A model generated the notes under the pieces. The model was not told the origin of the DNA. It was given only the letters and a program-made list of their open reading frames with translations, and made no database searches. DNA of 38,099 nucleotides. Origin: Vezdaea acicularis (lineage: Eukaryota). The translations under genes were made by a program, and so were the position numbers. Shown here in pieces: positions 1,038 to 38,099 of this stretch (position 1 is its first letter; each line of letters begins with the position of its first letter). The stretch spans positions 1 to 38,099 of the forward strand of contig JAPEUI010000142.1 of the NCBI GenBank assembly GCA_026025075.1, given 5' to 3'.

Positions 1038-1604
1038 ATGCCTTCTCGGCGTCGAGGCGCGTTTAAGCAGCCAGTCGATTCTGATAGAGGTCACACTTTC
1101 CTAGGTAGATTGAGTGATTGCTTGACTGGAAAGGGACCCGATATGTTCATTGGCAGTTACTATGGTTACAAAGGGCCAAGGCCAGAGGTATGGGCTAGAT
1201 ATCCAGACTTATTATATCCAAGGGATTTGACGCTGTACGGTGATCCAACCATTGACAATCCTGTTCTTGGATTGGATGCGACTGGATGGAGAAAGACAAT
1301 GCCATGGGCGCGTCGGACAAGAAAGCGCTACAATCCAACAACCAGACGATACGAAGAATTTTCGTATGTTCCACTATGCGATGAGTATGGAAGACTTGAG
1401 CGGAACGTGTTCGACGAGCCATGGGGGTGGAAAGCGGCTCCTCGAGGAATCCTGCATGGCAAGCGGTCGACAAATGAGTGGAACGTTGATGTGAATAAAC
1501 CTTGGAAAAGATTTGAAGCTTCCTGGGCCACAGGTGCTCAAGATTCAAGTCTTCATCGAGGTGGCCTTGGAATAGAGCCTCGTCCATTCACTTATTATTA
1601 CTGA
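1038..1604 (+). CDS. Hypothetical protein (~188 aa, Trp/Tyr/Arg-rich); may have upstream exons
   Basis: ATG at 1038 lies in the 1005..1604 ORF and the composition is protein-like. An intron-like segment lies upstream (GTAAGT 893 ... CTAAC-GCAG 976); splicing it would create an in-frame AT|G. No family recognised. Confidence 0.55.
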   Translation: MPSRRRGAFKQPVDSDRGHTFLGRLSDCLTGKGPDMFIGSYYGYKGPRPEVWARYPDLLYPRDLTLYGDPTIDNPVLGLDATGWRKTMPWARRTRKRYNPTTRRYEEFSYVPLCDEYGRLERNVFDEPWGWKAAPRGILHGKRSTNEWNVDVNKPWKRFEASWATGAQDSSLHRGGLGIEPRPFTYYY

Positions 1605-22617: not shown

Positions 22618-24631
22618 CTATAAATCATTCTTCCATCGCTCGTTCGCTCCTGTAGCGTCCTCTGACGGATCAAGGCACACGAGACCGAACCACGCTTTGG
22701 ACGTACAAGTATGTGTTAAAGACGAGCGGGAGGTTGAGACGGGCGTGGTGGGCGCCGTTGGGGCTGTTGTGATGGAGTGGGCTAGGCTCGTCGTGGACGA
22801 ATCAAGACATCCCCCGAACCAGCCTTTTGAGTGGCAACTCGAAGTCGCTGGGGCGTCGGTCCAGGTCGATGTGGGAGATACCGTCCCGGCGGGCTTCGAG
22901 GTTTTGATTGTTGGGGTAGGGTCGTTGCATCCGAACCAGCCAGGTGTTTTGCAAGTCGTCGTCGATGTCGTACTGGCCGTACTTGACGTGGTGGTCGTAC
23001 TAGTTGCGGTAGTCGTTGTACTTTCATCTAGGCATCCCCACCAGCCTGGAGTCTTGCACGTGGTAGTCCGAGTCCGAGTTGTAGACGTGGTGCTACTCGT
23101 AGATGAGGTGGAGTCTGAGCTGTGACTCTCGAAGAACTTCCAGTTGAAACAATCGACGCATTCTGTGTCTCTCGTGCATTCCGGAAGGTCGTCGTAAGCA
23201 CGGATCACGTCGTGAATCACTGATTGGATTCGGTGCGTACCCACACCAACGCGCCATCCTTTGTCTTCAACCGTGTCATATATGCATACATTGCCAGTGT
23301 GGCACTGTGTCTCCATTGCATAACCACCCAACGAACAAGCAGATGTGACGCCGTTGCATGTGCCCATGAATATAGGATCCGCTGTGTGACCAAAGTGGTG
23401 AATTCCTGTATCATTTCTCTTCTGAGGAAACATGGGATCGGATCCTGGCGGCGAGAAAAGCCCAAGTCGAGTAGCTGCGAGCGCTTCGGCAGGTGCTTGA
23501 AAGGCGATGACGGGCAGGCCGTAAGTCAGCCCTAGGAGACTACTGACTGAGCCACCGAGCGAATGACCCGCTAGCCAGATAGTAGAGTTTGGGTATCGCT
23601 CTGTGACGTTCGAATAAAGCTCTTTTGCGGCATGATAATATCGGTTTTCATCTCGAAGAGACTGGCCTAAGCAGGTTGAATTACAGGTGTATGTTGTCGA
23701 ATAGCAGTCGCAGACTTGTTTCCACGTGTAGTGACCCTGTTGAGCACAGCAACAGCTGAAAAACAGGTTATCGTTGACTTTGTCATTTGTTGTGGTTTCG
23801 GCGCCATCCCATACAGCTGGAAATGCCAAGTAGTTAGACTCTGTAACGAATAGCAATGGAGAGGGGGCATACCTGGTGAGGTTCCCTTCAACGCCATGAG
23901 GACTGTGGTGTTATCTTTGTCCACAAATATGTGGCCCCGAAGCCCGTCGCCTTCCCACCCAAAGCTCTCCGAGTAGTTGAGCCCTCCTCCCACATCATCC
24001 CATTCCCCTGTGCCTGGCTCCATGACGTACGCATTACCAGCTGCTATCGCGAATGTGAGGACGGTCTCCTTGTCCGAGGCGTTAGGCCCAGCCACTTCAT
24101 CTATTGTCCATGCCGGAGGTGATAAAGAATAGACCTCACCCTGGCGACGCGCGGCCATGAGGGGTTCAATATAAGAAGGACGCCTATCCACAAGCCTCTC
24201 TATGGAAGTACGGCGAGAGCGTGCTCTTAGTACCGAGGGTGCCTTCTCCTCAACCCCATCATCCACCGAAACCCTTAGAACTGTGTCTGGCTGCACATCT
24301 AAACGTTTGTGAAGGTTTGGATGTCGGTAGGTGCCGTGATGGAAGATATGTCGAAGGGTCTGAATTGAGGTTAGTTAGCAGCTGGGCTAGACTTATGGCC
24401 GGGATGTGTGCATACAAATTCATGCTCTCTAGCGAAGGGATCTGAGCTTTCGCCGCTTGGAATAACAGCTTCTGTAGATATCCTGGGTATTTGGGGATCT
24501 TCGATTCCAGGTGTGCTATGCTTTGAAGCGACTGTCGATGATGACGACAAAGCTAGGAATGAAAGCAAGAGCCGCGCAGTAACTTTTCCTGGAGATGAGC
24601 ATAGTGACGAAAGCGCTTTGTGCCGCGACAT
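22618..24631 (-). CDS. ATG15: Autophagy-related vacuolar lipase Atg15, 3 exons
   Basis: Hydrophobic N-terminal anchor, [41 protein letters not shown], lipase nucleophile [18 protein letters not shown] and a Thr-rich tail. Two GTATGC...CAG introns. Confidence 0.93.
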
Positions 24632-27873: not shown

Positions 27874-29362
27874 TCAATTCCCTAGATTTCCCTTCCTGGG
27901 CAACGCTAGCCAAGAAAGGACAATACAGCCAAGCAGTCCGAGCACAAATGGGGGCAGAACCTCCACCCCCCTTTTGTCCGCAATAGCCCCAACGGCGAAC
28001 GGAAGTACCGCCGCGCCCGCACTACCCAGCGTGCTGATCAAGCCTATAGCCACAACGTGTAGATGTCTTGGCAGTAGCTGGGTCGCAACGACGATAGCCG
28101 TTGGGAACACTGGACCTAGGAAAAAGCCAACGAAAGCAACCGTCACCGCCGAAGAGATGAAGTTGGGGATGAGCCAGAAGACAAGCTCGAGGGAAATGGC
28201 AAGCAGGAGGTAGAGCAAAACGGCACGGCGCTCGCCGATGTGCGAGGTTACGAATCCGAGCACGACCGTTCCGATCGTGATACCAAGCCAGAAGCCGACG
28301 AGGGACATGCCGGCCGCGAATGGAGTGGCGGAGCGGAGAGACATCAGGTAGACCACTAGCCAGCCGCCAAGGGCGACTTCGGCGCCGAGATAGAGGAGGC
28401 CGAGAAGTGCAATGATCCAGGTCGTGCGCTTGGAGAGTGATTCGCGAAGGCGGCCTTGGGTAGAGTTGCTTGAGGATGGCGGGGTGAAGGTGGTAAATTG
28501 GTGGCCGGTAGATTTCCAGAATGCAGTAGTGCAGAGGAGGAGTTCGAGAACGACAGCAGCAATCTGGTGGGAGTCAGCGAGTGACATGAACCGGTTGGAC
28601 AGGAGGAAGATACCATCACATAGTAGAAGTAGTACCATTGGAGATGGCCTTTATTGATCATAGTTGTTGCAACCAGTGGACTGACGGTTGCGCCCAGTCC
28701 ATAAAAGCCGTGCAGGAAGCCCATTAACTCATTTGTACTCTCCATTTTGGCTATCCAGGCGTTCCATGCTGCATCGAGGACTCCATTACCAAAACCAGCA
28801 AAGACGCACACAACTGCTACGACGGGATAGGGTGGGTGCAGAGCCAGTACAATGAACGCCATGAGATGGCATACCGGTCCGATGATAGCAATGCCCCGCT
28901 GTCCAAACTTCATATGGATGGGGTTGTTAAGGAGTGCAGATAGAACATATCCCACGACAGGGGAGAGAAAGACCAGAGAGACAAGGGTATAGCTGAGGCT
29001 ATAATAGGACTCGAGATAGGGTATCAGCGCCTGTCTTCAAAGTCAGACTTTGGCCAAAGGTAGCGAACCGTGATACTTACACCGTATGAAGCATCCGTTG
29101 CACCCAAGATTAGAAAGCTATAAAAACTGGCGAGGACCCGGCATATATTGGATGGAGATTTGTTCCATTGTAGAATTGATAATCGTCTCGTGACAGGACC
29201 TGGAAGACCACCTTCGGAGTTGTGATTCTCGATTTGTAGAGAGGCGTGCCATCCTGATGGCGTACAAGATTCCTTCAAGTCTTCTTTATCTCGAGGAGAC
29301 CAGTGCGAAAGTACTGTTCCAAAAGTTGAGCACGAACTACTGTCATTGATATTGAGTGCCAT
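27874..29362 (-). CDS. MFS transporter, BSC6/TsgA-like family, 3 exons
   Basis: WNKSPSNICRVLASFYSFLILGATDASYG|ALIPYLE, GFGNGVLDAAWNAW, MGFLHGFYGLGATVSP, YLGAEVALGGW, GFWLGITIG and GFFLGPVFP; about 12 hydrophobic segments. Confidence 0.88.
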
Positions 29363-30162
29363 GCCATCTCTGTACGACAGACACCCAGCATACACATACG
29401 ATATCTTGTGGAATTAATGAAAGCGGTTGCAACCAGAGTATATCCGGTCGCACCCTTGTGGTGATCATATGGAGATCAGCCATAGTCCATGAAAATTTGA
29501 TAGTTAGTGACTATCTCCTGAGTCTTAGTCCGGGAGCGATCTGGCAGGTGCACCCCTGGCTGCGATCTGGCGTTGGGATCGACAATCGGCATTGTGCCCC
29601 GTTGCGGAGTTGCCGGCGAAGAAACGGAGCCCGACTAGTGGCGCCCTAAGGGCCTTTAAGGCGTTCAAAAGTCGTTACCTCGGCCAATGGGGTAGCCATA
29701 TACATGAGAGAAGAAGCTCACTGGTGATGGCTTCTCAAATGCATTTTAGATCGTAGGCCCGATAATGTGCTGGTCAGTGATCGAGGGCCGAGCCCAAAAA
29801 TCTGGAACTCGAGGTGAAAAAAAGTCGTGACATATGCCAATTACCTCCGACTAAGAGATCGCCTTTAGAGTGTTGAACCCATGGCGAGAAATAGGCTAGT
29901 TGCATGCCCTTGCCAACTCGTTTCTGTCGGTCTCGGACTTGGTCTATAGGAGGCAGTGAGTCCGTCGTTTTTAGTCAGGCCCAGACCAGCAGGCTTTACA
30001 GGCATAAACATGTAGACCCTGCACTATCCCAGCCTGTCATGGGTTTCTCCACGCAGGACATGAGGACATTAAAGCATAGACAGGGTAAAAAGGTGGACGT
30101 CGCCCATGAAGAGTTTAACTTCTTCCCCAATTTTCAGAGTACAAGTTTCATAGCTCAGCAAC

Positions 30163-31347
30163 ATGCCCACCGTCAAAGCCGATATTGAATACCTCGCGAA
30201 CATTCCTCTATATGAGGTCGAAAAGCCATACCTGGCTCTACTACCTCCGAGTGAAGGTTACGACCCGGATGAGCATCGCACGGATAATCTCGAATATGAG
30301 ACCGCTCATGGCATGTCAATTACCGATATCCGCGGCAGCGATGAATTCAAGCTTGAGAAGTGCGGGTTTCAAGTCATGAAGCACACGAGTAACATCAAGA
30401 GCGTGAGCTCTATCGAGGATATTGAGGCATATAAGCGCGAGACAGAGAAGTTGTTGACCAAACAGCTTGGTGCTACTCACGTTCACTGTTACGATGTCAA
30501 AGTAGGCCACCTGAATGTGACAGGAGGCCAGTTGCTGATGATTTTCTAGGCGCGGAAGAACATGCTGTTTAACAGGAAGCAATTCGATGCCAATGATCCT
30601 CTGCTCGTAGAAGGTCCCGCAAAAGCAGCCCACAATGGTGAGTATCCCGAGAGGAGTGCTTTTCCGGCGAGGCTGACGCAACTAGACGTCACAATCGATT
30701 CTGGTCCTGTCATCATCGACCGGTATCTGAGTGACGAGGAGAAGCACCGATTCCTGAAGCCCGGCTATCGCTTTCGGATCGTGAAGTAAGCATACGACGC
30801 TCTCATGATTATGAAAATCCAAGCAAGTCTGACGATATCGTAGCACCTGGAGAAGCCTGGTGCCGGAACTGGAGGATAGGCCCCTTGCCCTGTGTGACGC
30901 TCGCAGCGTCGATCCAGATGATCTTGTGGCAGCGGATCGGATTCTCCCAGATCGGGCAGGAGAGGTATACTATCTGAGGCACAATAGTCGCCATCGCTGG
31001 TAAGCCTTCACGTAACGTTTCACCTATCGTTGGAGTTGTTGCCTTTCTTTAACATTAATGGTTCAAGGACTCCAAATCAAATGTGAGAAAGAAAGAGAAG
31101 AAAGTTAACATATAATATAGGTGCTGGCTTGAGAAGCAAACCCCTGAAGAGCCTTTTGTTTTCGTGCTTTACGATACAAAAGCAGGGGATCATGCCCGAA
31201 GTACGTAGTCCTGCTGCTTGTTCTTGCGTGGCATACTGACGGGGCAAAGTCTGTCCGCACGTCTCTTTCGACAATCCTCGAGCACCACCAGATGCGCCCA
31301 TGCGTCAGAGCGTAGAGACACGCTCGGTTGTGATCACGGAAGAGTAG
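30163..31347 (+). CDS. AsaB/CmcJ/CTB9-family putative Fe(II)/2-oxoglutarate hydroxylase-desaturase, 6 exons
   Basis: Spliced protein: YEVEKPY...ITDIRG..F.LEKCGFQ...AH(N)D...IVNTWRSL...DRPLALCD...HRWCWLEKQTPEE...YDT...CPHVSF...RQSVETR. The H-x-D...H triad and RxS motif are present. All five introns (starting 30502, 30638, 30786, 31000, 31201) keep frame. Confidence 0.85.
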
Positions 31348-33216
31348 GAAAACCCAGATTGAGAAGGATAGATCGTTAAGGGGGCGCGGAAAGCGGGATG
31401 GACTTGCATGATGCTTCTGCATTCTTGTCACATACCATTTGGAACATCGTCCCGTAGGAACAGCGTATCGCGAGGCGACACTCTGGTCGTTTCCCAAATC
31501 CTCCACGCGCATATCCACTGCCACAACTGTCCGATTGACTGCATGGATCTCGTGCGTGGATGGGCCTTGATGTCAGTCCTCTTTGCCTTCCCTGCATCGA
31601 GCGGCTGGATTCTTGAAGCCCATCGATAATGCCGGGCACTTTGTGTGGAAAATTTATCGATACGGCAGATGGAGCGTTGAGATCGAACCCGAAGACCAAG
31701 ATCGCTCCCCTATCGATCTGCCGATCTTTAACCTCGTGCATGACAGCCGTCGTCAATGCTTGAGATACCCCGGACGCACGGACCAGGCATCCAGCAGAGA
31801 GGGTCGGGTCTAAGCCTATACTGGCGATTGTGGCAACCGCGGAGAATGCAACTCCTCAGCAAAGGAAAGTCTGGAAGGCTGGGGGCTTAATTAGCGTGCT
31901 GTCCTTGGGACTATCGCCTTAGCAGGACAGCTTGACCACTCAGCGTTTTGGAGCTGGAGCGAGAAGGCGACCGCCTAAACAGACAAACCTAGCTTCATTC
32001 TGGGTGTCGTAAGTCAACTAGTAGTCCCTGTGGTTGGTCGAGACCGCCCAGAATTTTCATTATCTAAGGCGTGGATTGAATGGGATACAAGATCTAACAG
32101 GCACACCAACGAAAACGGTCCAGATGTTTGAGCCATCAGTCTGAGGTTTGATTTTGGTAGCTGGACATTGGTTGAAAGTTGACGGTCGAAGAGCGGTAGA
32201 CCGCGAGTGCGGCGTTGAAAGGGGCAGGATGTGAACTCGATCTCGATTGCGATAGCGATATTCGCAGAGATCAACCCCAATAGCGATTGAGCCATGCTGC
32301 ACGTCACGGCAGGAACTGACCACGGCACAGACCCCATAGGGCAGAAGTCTGCTTCTGATTTGTCCCACATCATACGGCGGCTGGGGAAGGGTGCAGCGGT
32401 TTCTGCAACGGGTGAACTTCCACGGCATGCCGTTGAGGAGAGGGGCCTGAGACACAGCATTAGCGCAGCCCGATTTGGTTCTAGAGTGACAGTAGAGCCA
32501 GCCCCACCTTTGCTGCAGGTTGCATCACAACCAGGAAACGGTTACACAGCGAGAACGGCGGCGATGTTCCAAACTCAATTCCCTCCACTGTCAGACGTCG
32601 CCCTGATATTCACATCTGAATTGCCGTAACACAAAGCGCAGAACACATGGCGACACCATCGTACGTAATTAGTCTCGAGCGCTCGCCTATTCTGAAGATC
32701 GATCGTCCCGCCCACTAGCGTGCGGAGCCGCGGAAGTGACAGTTAGCGCCGCTGTAGCCCCGGTTTCTGGGTGAGGGGCTTGTACGAGCTAGACTAGCGT
32801 CTGACTGCTGTCGGCGATTCATGTGACGACAATTGCCGGCGCATTATACTATCCCGTTCATACCTTAGCAAACACCACCGGCCCCTTCGCTGGCGCTACA
32901 TACGAGAGTTGGTCGCCTGCCGTGGAATGAGCGTCCGCGGACTTGTGGCCGGGCTGAGTGAAGCAATAGACAGAAATCAATGTGCCTAGATTTTCCAGAA
33001 GGCAGTTGATCGACTGCGCTAGAGGGAGATGTGACCCCAGATCTCGATCGAACGAGGAGATGTCCGGCGGTTGACTCGGCGTTGTTGTATGATCTAGATG
33101 TCGCCACGGCGCACATGTGCCCAGTAGACGATCTAGATCCTGTTCAGCTCGACGCCATGCCATCTTTCTCCGCGCCCTAGGCCTCCTCCAGTGCGATTGA
33201 CTGCTCTGTCCTCGAA

Positions 33217-33365
33217 TATTTAAAGGTCCTGAAATCCCGCTCGATATCAGATTTCTTTTCTGCATCACCATCAATCAGCTTCAATCAAACAATCAATTCA
33301 ACCAAACAATCAATCAATTACCTTCAAATCCTTCTCGCTTTACTCAACCAACCCACCCAATCAAA
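33217..33365 (+). promoter_or_regulatory. TATA box and CAA/CAAT-rich leader of the microprotein gene
   Basis: TATTTAAA at 33217-33224, then a pyrimidine tract, then an A/C-rich, G-poor leader (TCAATCAAACAATCAATTCAACCAAACAATCAATC) ending TCAAAATG. Confidence 0.6.
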
Positions 33366-33545
33366 ATGACTCAACCAACTGCCACCACTGTCCTCTCCAC
33401 CGTCTCCCGCGCTGGGTTCCCCGCCAGCAGCGGCCAGCAGCAGCCATGGAAGAAGTTCATCACTCCCTCCACCTCCACCAACGCCGAGATGACCGTTGCC
33501 TGCCCCCTCAAGACCCGCGGCTTTGAGCGTCTCGGTGGATACTAG
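33366..33545 (+). CDS. 59-aa microprotein MTQPTATTVLSTVSRAGFPASSGQQQPWKKFITPSTSTNAEMTVACPLKTRGFERLGGY
   Basis: Strong start context (CAAAATG), strong C-ending codon bias (ACC, GCC, TCC, CTC, AAG), and a TATA box and leader upstream. One codon below the ORF-track cutoff. Confidence 0.7.
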   Translation: MTQPTATTVLSTVSRAGFPASSGQQQPWKKFITPSTSTNAEMTVACPLKTRGFERLGGY

Positions 33546-33905
33546 AACCCCAACTAGGGCTGAATTTGCAGCCGGTAAGCTCTTCTTTGATCCATCTATA
33601 ATTTCCCGAACCCTTTGCTGAGTTTTCATCTTTAGATTTGTTCTTCCACCTTCAATCGCCAAGTACCAGAAGGTCGCTGTGAAGAGATCACCATTGGGAG
33701 TTGTTGCAATGGGAAGGTGGAGGTGTTGGGGTAGTTGGAGGTGGTGCCAGATCAATAGTGTACGCGATTAGTGATCAATACACACACTATGAAACCTCAA
33801 ACCTTTCCAGCCAATGTCTTTGATGTTATGATATCCGATCTTCGTTCGTCTTTTTGTATCACACTAGTCTTGACATCTTTTCCACCTTCTGCACCGCAGT
33901 AAAGC

Positions 33906-35449
33906 CTACGTTTGCTTCGTGAAGACCGTCGCGACCTTTCCTCCCATGTCGACTAAAGTACTCTTATTCCTAATCCACGCTTCAATGCCTCGCCTTCCAT
34001 TCTCGACACCTACACCGCTCATCTTCCAGCCGCCAACGCTCATCTCTGCTGGGCTTTCGCCCCATGTATTGATCCAAGTGATCCCTGCTTGCAGCCGTGC
34101 TACGATCTTGTGTGCCGCATTGATATCTTTTGTGAATACTCCAGCAGCTAGGCCAAGCGGTGTAGTATTTGCGCGGGCAATGGCCTCCTCAACATCATCA
34201 TAAGGGAGTATGCACAGAACGGGCCCGAAGATCTCTTCTTGCGTGATTTTCATCGAATCGGTGCAATCGGTAAAAACAGTTGGCTTGATCCAATAGCCAT
34301 ACTTGTAGGCACTAGGAATGTCAGCTGGCTTTTCCAAGCCGCCGTAGAGGAGTTTTGCCCGGTCTGTTTCAATTCCGTGTTTGATGTAGCTAAGCACCTT
34401 CTTGTGGTGCACCTCTGAGACAAGAGGCCCGAAATTTGTCGTCTGGTCCTCCAACTTTCCAAGACGGACGTTTTCCACCTTCCTCAATAGTGTCTCCTCA
34501 AATGCGCTTTTCATTTGCTTTGGTACGAAAACCCTAGTTCCGTTCGTGCATACCTGGCCACTGCTGTAGAAGTTTGCCATCATCGCTCCATCCACCGCGT
34601 TCTCGAGGTCGGCATCTGGGCAGACGATGAACGGGCTCTTTCCTCCAAGCTCCATTGTCACGTACTTCATGCCCTCTGCTGCGCTAGCTGCGACCTTCCG
34701 ACCTGTAGAAACTTGTCCTGTAAATGATACCTTTGCAATACTTGGATGTTTTGTCAAGTAGGCACCTATTTCACCCGGACCATTGATTACATTGAAAACT
34801 CCGGGAGGAAGACCAGCAGATGTGAGGAGCTTAGCGAGCTTAGGGCCATGTAATGGCGTTACCTCGGAGGGTTTGTACACCATGGTATTACCTGCTGCTA
34901 GACAAGGCGCGGCCTTCCAGAGAGCTATCTGGAGAGGGTAGTTCCTGCAACCTTCATCAGCTCTGCTGGAATAAGCTCATAAAATCGAACGTACCAAGCC
35001 CCGATCCCTGCACACACACCAAGAGGTTCTTTCTTGGTATATACCCATGCATCGTTTCTTAATTGCGTCGTCTCGCCGTTCAGACCACCACTACCGACTA
35101 GATTCGCATAGTACTCAAGTACATCTGCTCCGTAGGGCACATCTACGTATTGGGTCTCCGAAAGAGGCTTTCCAGTGTCAAGTGTCTCAGTTTCCGCAAA
35201 CTCGTCATTCCTCTCTCGTAACTCTTGAACCGCCTTCAGAAGAATACGAGATCGTTGGATTGGGGGAGTGGCTGCCCATGGTAGGAACGCTTTTTCTGCC
35301 GACTTTATCGCCGCATCAACGTCATCCGGAGATGCACACTGTATGGTAGCAACTTCTCTGCCGGTGGCAGGAGAGATTGACGAAAACAATTTGCCTGATG
35401 TGGCTTTCTGAGCCTGCCCGCCGTAGTAGAGCTCAATAGTTGTTGCCAT
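33906..35449 (-). CDS. badA: Betaine aldehyde dehydrogenase (BetB/BadA-like ALDH), 2 exons
   Basis: [69 protein letters not shown] (catalytic Cys), EEIFGPV and [18 protein letters not shown], all BetB-type signatures. Intron 34994-34945. Confidence 0.88.
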
Positions 35450-36169: not shown

Positions 36170-36301
36170 AATTGCATAAGGACAGCAAGGAGGAGAAGCA
36201 GCGGCGTCTCCTTGCTAGGACAGAAGGGACAACTGTATCTGGATAATCTTGTCTATCAGAGAAGCATTGATCCATATATGACTGTTTCCGGAAAAGCATT
36301 A

Positions 36302-36769
36302 TTTGTCCAAATAAATAGCGTCATTCAGGTAAGCAGCGTTGTCCCAATAAGTTGCATTGTCCTGATAAGTAGCATTGTTCTACTAAATAGCGTTGTCCAG
36401 ATAGAAAGCATTGTCTTGATAGACAATGTTGTCTTGATAAGCAATGCTATTTTGGTAGATAGCGTTGTTCTGACAAGTAGCGTTGTCCTGACAGGTAGCG
36501 TTATCCTAACGGATAGCTTTGTCCTGACAGATAGCATTGTTCAAATAGGTAGCGTTATTCTGACAGGTAGCGTTATCCTAATAGACAGCATTATTCTGAC
36601 AAATAGCGATGTCCTCACAGATAGTGTTGTCCTGACAGATAGTATTGTCTGGACAAATAGCGTTGTCCTGACAGATAGTAGTGTCCAAACAGGTAGTATT
36701 GTCCGGACAGGTAGTATTGTCCTGACAGGTAGCGTTGTCCTGACAGGTAGCATTGTCCTGACGGGTAGT
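36302..36769. repeat. Tandem array, 26 x 18 bp, consensus GTTGTCCTGACAGGTAGC
   Basis: Units were counted from the in-register hexapeptides FVQINS...IVLTGS. No indels; differences are mostly C>T/G>A transitions. Confidence 0.95.
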
Positions 36770-36793
36770 ATTAAATGTCCTGCTATCCATTTT

Positions 36794-38099
36794 CTATTGT
36801 CTCAATCCTTTTCTAATATCTATAAATACAACTTTCATTAAACGCATCCATCGTGTCCGGGCTTTCAATTTAGCCCTAGCAGCAGCAGCTGCTGCCTTAA
36901 AGACAGCCCGACGCTTATTGTAATCTTTAGTCCGTGCCCTTTTAAGCTGCCCTTCTAGCTGTTTAACATCGTCTTCCTGGCGCTTCTTGACTGATAGTCG
37001 AGCTTGTCCCACTGAGATGACTCCACCTTGCTGGACTACTCTATTAGTTAAGCCTTTTCTAGTTGCCCGGGCAAGGGCATCTGATTGATTGCGATGCAGA
37101 TCTTCTTCTATACGTTCTTTTGTATAAAATGCTGATAGACTGCCTTTGACAAAACGTTCCAGGTCATCCTTAAAAGGCGATGAAAGCAATTTGTCCTGGA
37201 CACGCTGAATAATGTATTCTGCCAATTGATCTGCCTGGGCAACTGTTGTGGGTGTCATGTCCAGAGAAGGGCTTTCAAGCCTTGGGGGCGTTATGAAAGC
37301 GTTAGGACGAGATGGTTGTCCCGTCTTTGGTAGTGCATTGAGTACCAGGTCAGGATTATAAGGATACAATCCTGATCTGCGCCATGCAGAAGATATATTT
37401 GTTGGTTTAAAAGTTTGTTTCCGGACGATTGAAAGAGCAGCTAGGAAATCTAATTTGTTGAAGTCTAAGTTGCTCCGCAAGGCAGCTTCATCCAGGACAA
37501 CAGATTGATAGTGTTTATAAGGTTGGAAGCATCCCACATCTAATGGTTGTAATATATGGGTCGTATGAAGGGGCAGTAAGAATAGATGGATGCTTTGTTC
37601 TTCGCAGTATTGAACAAACTCCATGCTCAGGTGTGTTGTGTGTCCATCTAGGACAAGCATCCGGACAGCGCCAACCTGACGCCTAGCGCTGAGCTTATCA
37701 AATTGTTTTATCCAAGCAAGAGCTATATCATCGTTGATATAACCTGTATTGCTGACAGCTAGAAGTGTTCCGTTACCCAAGTCATTGCTGACCCAAGGCG
37801 CCCGAATCTGTTTGGCTGCAAATATGACCAATGGGGCAAAGACAACTCCATCTGCACTGATGCACTCAACAACAGTTAGACTCTCTCGATTTGCAGAATT
37901 GGATATAGTGTCCTTGTTTTGTCCTGATTTCAACAGTTTATTCAGGATAACTTTCTGTGCCCGTCCCATGCTCAACTGAAAACCTGATTCATCAACGTTA
38001 TATAAATCTGCTGTCTGGACGCCGTGATTTATGATTGCTTCATTGAAGGCAACAAAGTGTCTGGATATAGCGTTGAAATCCATTGCCCCTCTACGCTCT
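36794..38099 (-). CDS. pogo/Fot1-like DDE transposase, N-terminally truncated by window edge
   Basis: YNVDESGF, ESLTVVECISADG, MLVLDGHTTH and LPLHTTHILQPLDVGCFQPYK. The frame stays open to the window end (ERRGAM...). Confidence 0.93.
   Translation of the reverse strand, partial: ERRGAMDFNAISRHFVAFNEAIINHGVQTADLYNVDESGFQLSMGRAQKVILNKLLKSGQNKDTISNSANRESLTVVECISADGVVFAPLVIFAAKQIRAPWVSNDLGNGTLLAVSNTGYINDDIALAWIKQFDKLSARRQVGAVRMLVLDGHTTHLSMEFVQYCEEQSIHLFLLPLHTTHILQPLDVGCFQPYKHYQSVVLDEAALRSNLDFNKLDFLAALSIVRKQTFKPTNISSAWRRSGLYPYNPDLVLNALPKTGQPSRPNAFITPPRLESPSLDMTPTTVAQADQLAEYIIQRVQDKLLSSPFKDDLERFVKGSLSAFYTKERIEEDLHRNQSDALARATRKGLTNRVVQQGGVISVGQARLSVKKRQEDDVKQLEGQLKRARTKDYNKRRAVFKAAAAAARAKLKARTRWMRLMKVVFIDIRKGLRQ

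What the first reader, a model, noticed from the sequence alone, without database searches (positions are those of the whole stretch)
33217..33545. Hidden 59-aa microprotein gene with hallmarks of high expression
Seen: an intronless ATG(33366)-TAG(33545) ORF with TATA box, CAA-rich G-poor leader, strong CAAAATG context and strong C-ending codon bias. It is preceded by ~2 kb of apparently gene-free DNA and is missed by a 60-aa cutoff. The peptide is Thr/Ser-rich with a PWKKFITP core and a CPLKTRGFERLGGY tail. It has no signal peptide and I recognise no family. Inference: an unannotated, strongly regulated small protein, either stress/development type or a peptide precursor.
Basis: partly seen in the sequence, partly recalled or inferred. 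Interest (0 to 1): 0.7.

Follow-up and report, generated by a model that had tools for sequence, protein, structure and literature searches.

The report
Real, lineage-restricted 59-residue fungal microprotein
A moss-dwelling fungus carries a tiny gene of no known family that looks built for very strong expression and may be switched on by light or development; it is real and has one known relative family member, but it is already in the public protein catalogue and its job is still a guess.

Summary
The ORF is real. ATG 33366-TAG 33545 encodes 59 aa. Among 1,891 ATG ORFs of 40-80 aa in 638 kb of this genome it has the most G-poor leader and the second-highest high-expression codon score, above histone H3 and GAPDH. 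A homologue (P0002, 59 aa, 35 of 60 columns identical, E 3.6e-12) keeps start, length and stop, and its cluster mate P0005 shows a matching TATA position and leader. It is not hidden: the exact sequence is in NCBI nr. No Pfam, NCBIfam, PDB, Atlas or literature match. It is basic (pI 10), has no signal peptide, transmembrane helix or CAAX box, and the cysteine is not conserved. New here: six GATC sites (0.9 expected) and a perfect SUB1/NsdD-type bipartite motif lie just upstream of the TATA box, the genome encodes WC-1, and its con-6 gene has a similar cluster; controls were mixed. Best reading: a light- or development-induced, abundant intracellular microprotein of the con-6/ccg-1 kind, acting through short conserved motifs. 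A peptide-precursor role is unlikely (no UstYa or prolyl oligopeptidase found). No expression data exist.

The parts
33366..33545 (+). Coding sequence of the 59-aa microprotein P0001 (6.3 kDa, pI 10.0); conserved blocks VSRAG.PA, GQQQ.WKK..TP, M.VA.P..TRG.ERL.GY
33265..33365 (+). CAA-rich, G-poor 5' leader ending in CAAA before the ATG (transcription start inferred, not mapped)
   Evidence: aligns to the N-terminal extension of P0005
33217..33224 (+). TATA-like box TATTTAAA; the matching stretch of P0005 sits 153 nt before its Met against 152 here (distance counted by eye)
   Evidence: tblastn E 0.036 in 900 bases
33008..33143 (.). Cluster of six GATC sites (33008, 33040, 33046, 33091, 33130, 33136) including a SUB1-type bipartite motif at 33129-33143; candidate WCC or NsdD/SUB1 element (inferred)
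33575..33635 (+). Possible 61-nt intron in the 3' UTR (GTAAGC, CTGAG branch-like site, TTTAG); unproven
   Evidence: signature in 55 of 1,904 genome tiles and 136 of 5,000 shuffles
31350..33216 (.). Upstream intergenic region without coding signal; 17 GATC against 7.7 expected; STRE not enriched (6 against 4.4)
30163..31330 (+). Context: upstream intron-containing CmcJ/NvfI-family oxidoreductase gene (end approximate); no evidence of linkage
   Evidence: NF041278, two exons 39.5 and 58.5 bits
33906..35449 (-). Context: convergent betaine-aldehyde-dehydrogenase-like gene
27874..29362 (-). Context: MFS transporter gene, divergent from the CmcJ/NvfI gene

Best explanation
An ordinary protein-coding gene for a small, basic, unsecreted, largely unfolded protein made in bulk when induced. 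Shown: intact ORF, frame-specific optimal codons, a homologue with the same start, length and stop. Inferred: (1) GATC-binding GATA factors, the White Collar complex and/or NsdD/SUB1, bind the cluster 75-210 nt upstream of the TATA box and switch the gene on in light or during fruiting and spore formation, as for con-6; (2) the G-poor leader and optimal codons give rapid, abundant translation; (3) the protein stays inside the cell and acts through its three short conserved motifs, which bind a larger partner or a polyanion and tune stress or dormancy physiology of an exposed, moss-surface fungus. It works like CON-6/CCG-1 in regulation but is not a member of those families.
For: Coding. Conservation: P0002 35 of 60 columns, two compensating one-codon gaps, same stop; against P0005 the upstream leader aligns in two different frames while the ORF aligns in one; neutral drift to 60% identity leaves an intact ORF in about 0.10 of simulations even without indels. 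Location: no hydrophobic segment, no CAAX, no PTS1; AlphaFold gave no fold. Regulation: 6 GATC in 217 nt against 0.9 expected; six within 130 nt occurs at 4 places in 638 kb, two of them one tandem repeat; exact SUB1 bipartite motif, 0.039 expected in 217 nt; WCC binds tandem GATC and SUB1 that motif (PMC4378982); NsdD binds GATCT (PMC12345274), 5 overlapping matches here against 0.52; WC-1 orthologue with LOV, PAS and GATA finger in this genome; the con-6 gene here has four GATC in 41 nt upstream and con-6 is light-induced in Neurospora (PMC4169166).
Against: The GATC motif was picked after looking at the sequence; a first-order Markov null trained on the same stretch gives P 0.064. Controls are mixed: tandem-pair count is 3 here, 5 for con-6, but 3 for histone H3, 2 for GAPDH and only 0 and 1 for two photolyase/cryptochrome loci; 25 of 578 random kilobases reach 3. 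Two of the three pairs are spaced 2 bp, not the 10-30 bp preferred by WCC. Conserved blocks are not significantly clustered (P 0.24 and 0.11). The translated non-coding leader is also about half identical to P0005, so protein identity alone is weak proof of selection, and P0002 was found because it is an ORF. The charge-hydropathy point lies slightly on the folded side, so disorder is not shown. No partner is identified.
Confidence: 0.42

Rival explanations
1. Real abundant microprotein, but regulated by something else (nutrient, osmotic or symbiotic cue) or constitutive; the GATC cluster is incidental.
For: All coding evidence; mixed promoter controls and Markov P 0.064.
Against: Six GATC plus an exact SUB1 motif directly before the TATA box; STRE sites not enriched.
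Confidence: 0.25
2. Small mitochondrial matrix protein: residues 1-20 are a targeting presequence and the mature part regulates a respiratory complex.
For: No acidic residue before position 40-41, Ser/Thr-rich start, strongest helical hydrophobic moment at residues 6-16 (0.55) in both P0001 and P0002.
Against: Only one Arg in the first 28 residues; the N-terminal block is as conserved in sequence as the rest, unlike typical presequences (recalled); no match to any family of small mitochondrial subunits. No targeting predictor was available.
Confidence: 0.12
3. Cytosolic precursor of a ribosomal peptide natural product, modified by the neighbouring CmcJ/NvfI oxygenase and exported by the MFS transporter.
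For: Neighbours are an oxygenase, a transporter and an aldehyde dehydrogenase; conserved prolines flank a variable middle; high-expression design.
Against: No signal peptide or repeated cores; no UstYa or Peptidase_S9_N match in G000, with the caveat that the assembly may be incomplete and one search had no positive control; neighbour genes lack the codon bias (CmcJ exon score 0.00, ALDH -0.16) and 1.9 kb separate the genes; no synteny data.
Confidence: 0.08
4. Ubiquitin/SUMO-tail mimic: the C-terminal RLGG-Y is trimmed to a diglycine and the peptide acts as a decoy or modifier.
For: The last six residues are identical in P0001 and P0002; the resemblance to ubiquitin-like tails is recalled, not tested.
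Against: P0005 has Ser in place of the first Gly; no ubiquitin-fold match or model.
Confidence: 0.04
5. Non-coding RNA or chance ORF in C-rich DNA.
For: Weak Rfam Afu_254 match, 23.2 bits against a cut-off of 60; region is C-rich.
Against: Bias is frame-specific, Lys/Gln/Glu codons end in G 8 of 9 times in a G-poor region; frame-conserved homologue; the Rfam match is carried by the leader and start context.
Confidence: 0.05

Closest known systems
CON-6 / CON-10 (ConF/ConJ) of Neurospora and Aspergillus
   Same: Small fungal proteins, strongly light- and conidiation-induced, linked to desiccation and germination (PMC4169166, passages). The con-6 gene of this genome has the same layout: TATA-like box, CAA-rich leader, C-ending codons, upstream GATC cluster.
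   Different: No sequence match; the genome's own Con-6 lies elsewhere; P0001 is only mildly hydrophilic and keeps hydrophobic and aromatic residues.
CCG-1/GRG-1 (PF11034)
   Same: Small protein of unknown function regulated by light, clock, oxidative stress and glucose starvation (PMC4169166).
   Different: No Pfam match for P0001; no Grg1 match in G000 (no positive control rang).
Rfam RF01504 Afu_254 and the A. fumigatus afu-254 transcript
   Same: The Rfam consensus has a near-identical CAA-rich leader end and start context. The afu-254 paper reports a highly expressed 854-nt RNA with a 60-nt intron and a putative 32-aa ORF (PMC13317194).
   Different: Score far below cut-off; what follows the AUG in the consensus is Cys-rich and unrelated to P0001. 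Homology with the chromosome 7 afu-254 locus could not be tested: its sequence is not in the text or readable supplement.
Fungal RiPP precursors (dikaritin/UstA type; MSDIN type)
   Same: Short, highly expressed ORFs near tailoring and transport genes (recalled).
   Different: No signal peptide, no repeated Kex2-flanked cores, no UstYa or S9 prolyl oligopeptidase match.
Nitroreductase N-terminal motif (PDB 7tmf)
   Same: Best PDB sequence match, residues 10-34, E 0.082.
   Different: Not significant, 25 of 191 residues; the Pro of the matched QPW is Arg in P0005.

Membership tests
CON-6 (PF10346) | Con-6 repeat domain | tested here: not met
   No Pfam hit for P0001 or P0002 at E up to 10; the family hits C283 instead
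CON-6/CCG-1 functional class | Light- or development-induced transcript | not testable with these tools
   No RNA run to lay; only promoter motifs available
CON-6/CCG-1 functional class | Tandem GATC elements in the promoter and a WC-1 in the genome | tested here: inconclusive
   3 tandem pairs, top 33 of 2,106 tiles; WC-1 present; controls mixed
GRG-1 (PF11034) | Grg1 domain | tested here: not met
Hydrophilins (definition recalled) | Gly above 6% | tested here: met
   8.5%
Hydrophilins (definition recalled) | Mean hydrophilicity above 1 | tested here: not met
   GRAVY -0.36
Dikaritin precursors | Signal peptide and repeated dibasic-flanked cores | tested here: not met
   Best 19-residue hydropathy 0.39; one KK, no repeats
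Dikaritin precursors | UstYa (PF11807) gene in cluster or genome | tested here: inconclusive
   0 matches in G000 but no control genome rang and the assembly may be incomplete
MSDIN-type cyclic peptide precursors | Prolyl oligopeptidase S9A in the genome | tested here: not met
   PF02897: 0 matches in G000, 4 of 14 control genomes rang; absence from an incomplete assembly is not proof
Lipopeptide pheromone precursors | C-terminal CAAX box | tested here: not met
Ubiquitin-like modifiers | Beta-grasp fold ending in an invariant diglycine | tested here: not met
   No family or PDB match, no fold, Ser for Gly in P0005
Mitochondrial presequence proteins | Basic amphipathic N-terminal helix without acidic residues | tested here: inconclusive
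   Moment 0.55 and no acid before residue 41, but a single Arg
Rfam RF01504 Afu_254 | Score of 60 bits or more | tested here: not met
   23.2 bits

The most novel reading that the evidence does not exclude
The protein is the precursor of a new class of fungal ribosomal peptide: cytosolic, without signal peptide or UstYa, cut at its conserved prolines, oxidised by the adjacent CmcJ/NvfI-type enzyme and exported by the MFS transporter, under light control, as a chemical signal or defence on the moss host.
Probability: 0.06. Interest if true: 0.8.

Novelty: new member of a known kind. Interest (0 to 1): 0.38.

Why it matters
A genome of only 18.9 Mb keeps a tiny gene with stronger translational optimisation than histone H3, which implies a product needed in bulk at some stage. 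It defines a new, so far three-sequence family with a clear promoter hypothesis, a handle on how little-studied moss-associated ascomycetes respond to light and drying. It is not surprising in kind: fungi have many small induced proteins of unknown function. The side observation that the Rfam Afu_254 consensus itself reads as a small-protein mRNA may matter more to Aspergillus workers.

Tried and rejected
Word-index search with P0001 found only itself (1 candidate); with alignment A1, 2 of 2 candidates, no new member; the 'longer' search covered only 218-2000 aa (606 candidates, none scored), so 105-217 aa forms were not searched that way. phmmer rows P0003 and P0004 are long repetitive sequences and were dropped as chance. 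Metagenome contig scans: 596 and 591 pattern hits, none confirmed; prokaryote genomes 93, none; viral contigs 43, one hit that lies inside an unrelated 315-aa oxidoreductase-like ORF. Own genome: single copy with P0001 and P0002. Pfam, NCBIfam, PDB: nothing significant. Atlas: best 0.81 for P0001, none for P0002, uninformative. AlphaFold on 2 sequences: pLDDT 57, pTM 0.13, so no fold search was run. Sequencing runs: no RNA holder listed. Laying four DNA runs: X2 covers the ORF without gaps and X5 spans 29500-34412 with 318 other letters and 33 gaps, but 522 difference rows were cut, so no dN/dS. Reading through the stop or into a second exon: the three frames after the possible intron score -0.06 to -0.27, rejected. 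STRE, CreA and HSE sites not convincingly enriched. Six peptide fragments gave 0 papers; a general microprotein search named nothing like it. Earlier scan notes: nothing in five look-ups. No complex prediction was run: no candidate partner.

Full report
Setting. The window is the whole of contig C49 of an 18.9-Mb, 315-contig fungal assembly. A catalase record that clusters with a window exon and lies on a contig of the same length (P0007) is labelled Vezdaea acicularis, a Pezizomycotina species of uncertain class in NCBI taxonomy. The runs that hold most of the stretch are moss metagenomes of one study (4 of 7 rows).

Observation. ATG 33366-TAG 33545 gives the quoted 59 residues. The leader 33265-33365 has 2 G in 101 nt, there is no upstream ATG after the TATA-like TATTTAAA at 33217, and 34 of 56 synonymous codons end in C. 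With a codon model trained on GAPDH, three histone exons and catalase against five weakly biased genes, the ORF scores 0.34 per codon, above H3 (0.25) and GAPDH (0.10), which were in the training set; its five other frames score -0.08 to 0.08 and 0 of 20,000 composition-matched shuffles reach it. In 638 kb, among 1,891 ATG ORFs of 40-80 aa, it is second for codon score, among the top four for C3s and alone in having 2 or fewer leader G. Six longer ORFs in the 1.9 kb upstream score negative and have no Pfam match. The claim that it is unannotated fails: the exact sequence is held from NCBI nr.

Relatives. phmmer over 1.84 billion representatives gave four rows: itself, P0002 (59 aa, E 3.6e-12) and two long repetitive sequences that I dropped. 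P0002 shares 35 of 60 columns, the first Met and the terminal Tyr, with two compensating one-residue gaps. Its cluster mate P0005 is the same protein (3 differences) called with a 65-residue extension. That extension aligns to our upstream DNA in two frames, one covering the TATA region and one the leader, whereas the ORF aligns in a single frame; so promoter, leader and ORF are homologous, with a frameshift upstream but none in the ORF. Cautions: the translated leader is itself about half identical, substitution-only drift to 60% identity leaves an intact ORF in about one case in ten, the identical blocks are not significantly clustered, and no DNA of the homologues was available for dN/dS. 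No further member appeared in word-index, metagenome, viral or prokaryote searches; the 105-217 aa range was not covered by the word index, and short fungal genes are often uncalled, so the true range is unknown. The gene is single-copy in G000.

Protein. 6.3 kDa, pI 10.0, GRAVY -0.36, 27% Ser+Thr, no transmembrane or signal segment, no CAAX or PTS1. Cys46 is Val in the homologues, which have a Cys at another position; Pro27 and Gly57 vary in P0005. No match in Pfam, NCBIfam or PDB beyond E 0.082, none in the Atlas, and AlphaFold gives no confident fold from two sequences. Six peptide fragments returned no paper in the searchable library; subscription journals and supplements were not covered.

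Promoter. The 217 nt before the TATA box hold six GATC (0.9 expected). Six within 130 nt occur at 4 places in 638 kb, two in one tandem repeat. An exact SUB1 bipartite motif lies at 33129-33143 (0.039 expected per 217 nt). In Neurospora the White Collar complex binds tandem GATC and SUB1 binds that motif (PMC4378982, passages; PMC7493669, passages); Aspergillus NsdD binds GATCT (PMC12345274, passages); that SUB1 and NsdD are orthologues is recalled. The genome encodes a WC-1 with LOV, PAS and GATA domains and further GATA factors. Its con-6 gene has four GATC within 41 nt about 810-845 nt upstream. Against this: the motif was chosen after inspection, a local Markov null gives 0.064, histone H3 has as many tandem pairs, two photolyase/cryptochrome loci have 0 and 1, and 25 of 578 random kilobases reach the same count. 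I treat this as a fair lead, not a result.

3' end. A 61-nt intron-like stretch starts 30 nt after the stop; such a signature arises in about 3 of 100 tiles or shuffles. The frames behind it are non-coding by codon score, so it would be a 3' UTR intron, and the conserved stop marks the true end.

Neighbours. A CmcJ/NvfI oxidoreductase and an MFS transporter lie upstream, an aldehyde dehydrogenase downstream. They lack comparable codon bias in the exons scored (the MFS exon is intermediate, C3s 0.43), and neither UstYa nor an S9 prolyl oligopeptidase was found in G000, so known fungal peptide pathways are not indicated. Synteny could not be tested.

Mechanism. Most likely (0.42) a light- or development-induced, abundant intracellular microprotein that acts through short conserved motifs, comparable in regulation to CON-6 and CCG-1, whose light induction and, for the conF conJ double mutant, desiccation phenotype are described in PMC4169166 (passages). 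That the gene is real and translated I put at about 0.92; the regulatory and motif-binding steps are inferred. Rivals: other regulation (0.25), mitochondrial import (0.12), peptide precursor (0.08), non-coding (0.05), ubiquitin-tail mimic (0.04).

Rfam match. The only Rfam hit, Afu_254 at 23.2 bits, is carried by the leader and start context. Read by eye across, the consensus continues from its AUG as 23 codons with 9 Cys and a stop, like a metallothionein, unrelated to P0001. Afu-254 was mapped to chromosome 7 (PMC2377427, passages), the metallothionein cmtA is Afu4g04318 (PMC6514546, passages), and a 2026 paper treats the chromosome 7 transcript as a lncRNA (PMC13317194: abstract, passages, first parts of Results and Discussion, supplement text; the figure with its sequence is a picture and could not be read). 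I could not resolve this.

Verdict. A real, previously called but uncharacterised microprotein that founds a small new family; new member of a known kind; interest 0.38. A review passage confirms that fungal microproteins are numerous and mostly unstudied (PMC11413187, passages).

Noticed in passing
Rfam RF01504 consensus, seen via window 33295-33460 and L023:1501-1555: The consensus of 'sRNA Afu_254' reads as a CAA-rich leader, AUG in strong context, 23 codons with 9 Cys and a stop (by eye): probably a metallothionein-like mRNA rather than a non-coding RNA. How it relates to the chromosome 7 afu-254 lncRNA of PMC13317194 is unresolved.
   Followed up: partly
window 33575-33635 (+): Intron-like stretch 30 nt after the stop codon; 3' UTR introns would be unusual for such a gene and could affect mRNA turnover.
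   Followed up: partly
L099:1827-1867 (G000 C283, upstream of con-6): Four GATC spaced 10-15 nt apart, a textbook-looking light response element upstream of the Con-6 gene.
   Followed up: partly
L041 (G000 C259) and G000 C7:23014-23985: WC-1 orthologue, and a PAS plus GATA frame that looks like WC-2; three photolyase/cryptochrome loci also present. No Grg1, UstYa or Peptidase_S9_N match in the assembly.
   Followed up: partly
window 22618-23433 (-): Frame with Thr-rich spacers and repeated C-x-(T/S)-x-GW-(W/F)-G-x-C-like cysteine motifs, next to a lipase-like exon at 23667-24158; no Pfam match.
   Followed up: no
window 36278-36841 (+) and 36794-38083 (-): DDE_1 transposase at the contig end, beside a hexapeptide-like repeat frame (weak LbH hit, E 0.0016) that is probably the antisense of a tandem repeat.
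   Followed up: no
window 1038-1604 (+): 188-aa ORF rich in Trp, Tyr, Arg and Pro with no Pfam match.
   Followed up: no
L007:937-1600 (G000 C4): GATC-rich tandem repeat of roughly 220-230 nt units in AT-rich DNA.
   Followed up: no
run X5, window 29500-34412: One 6.5-kb contig of a related organism keeps the whole CmcJ-microprotein-ALDH arrangement at about 93% identity; the best available material for dN/dS.
   Followed up: partly
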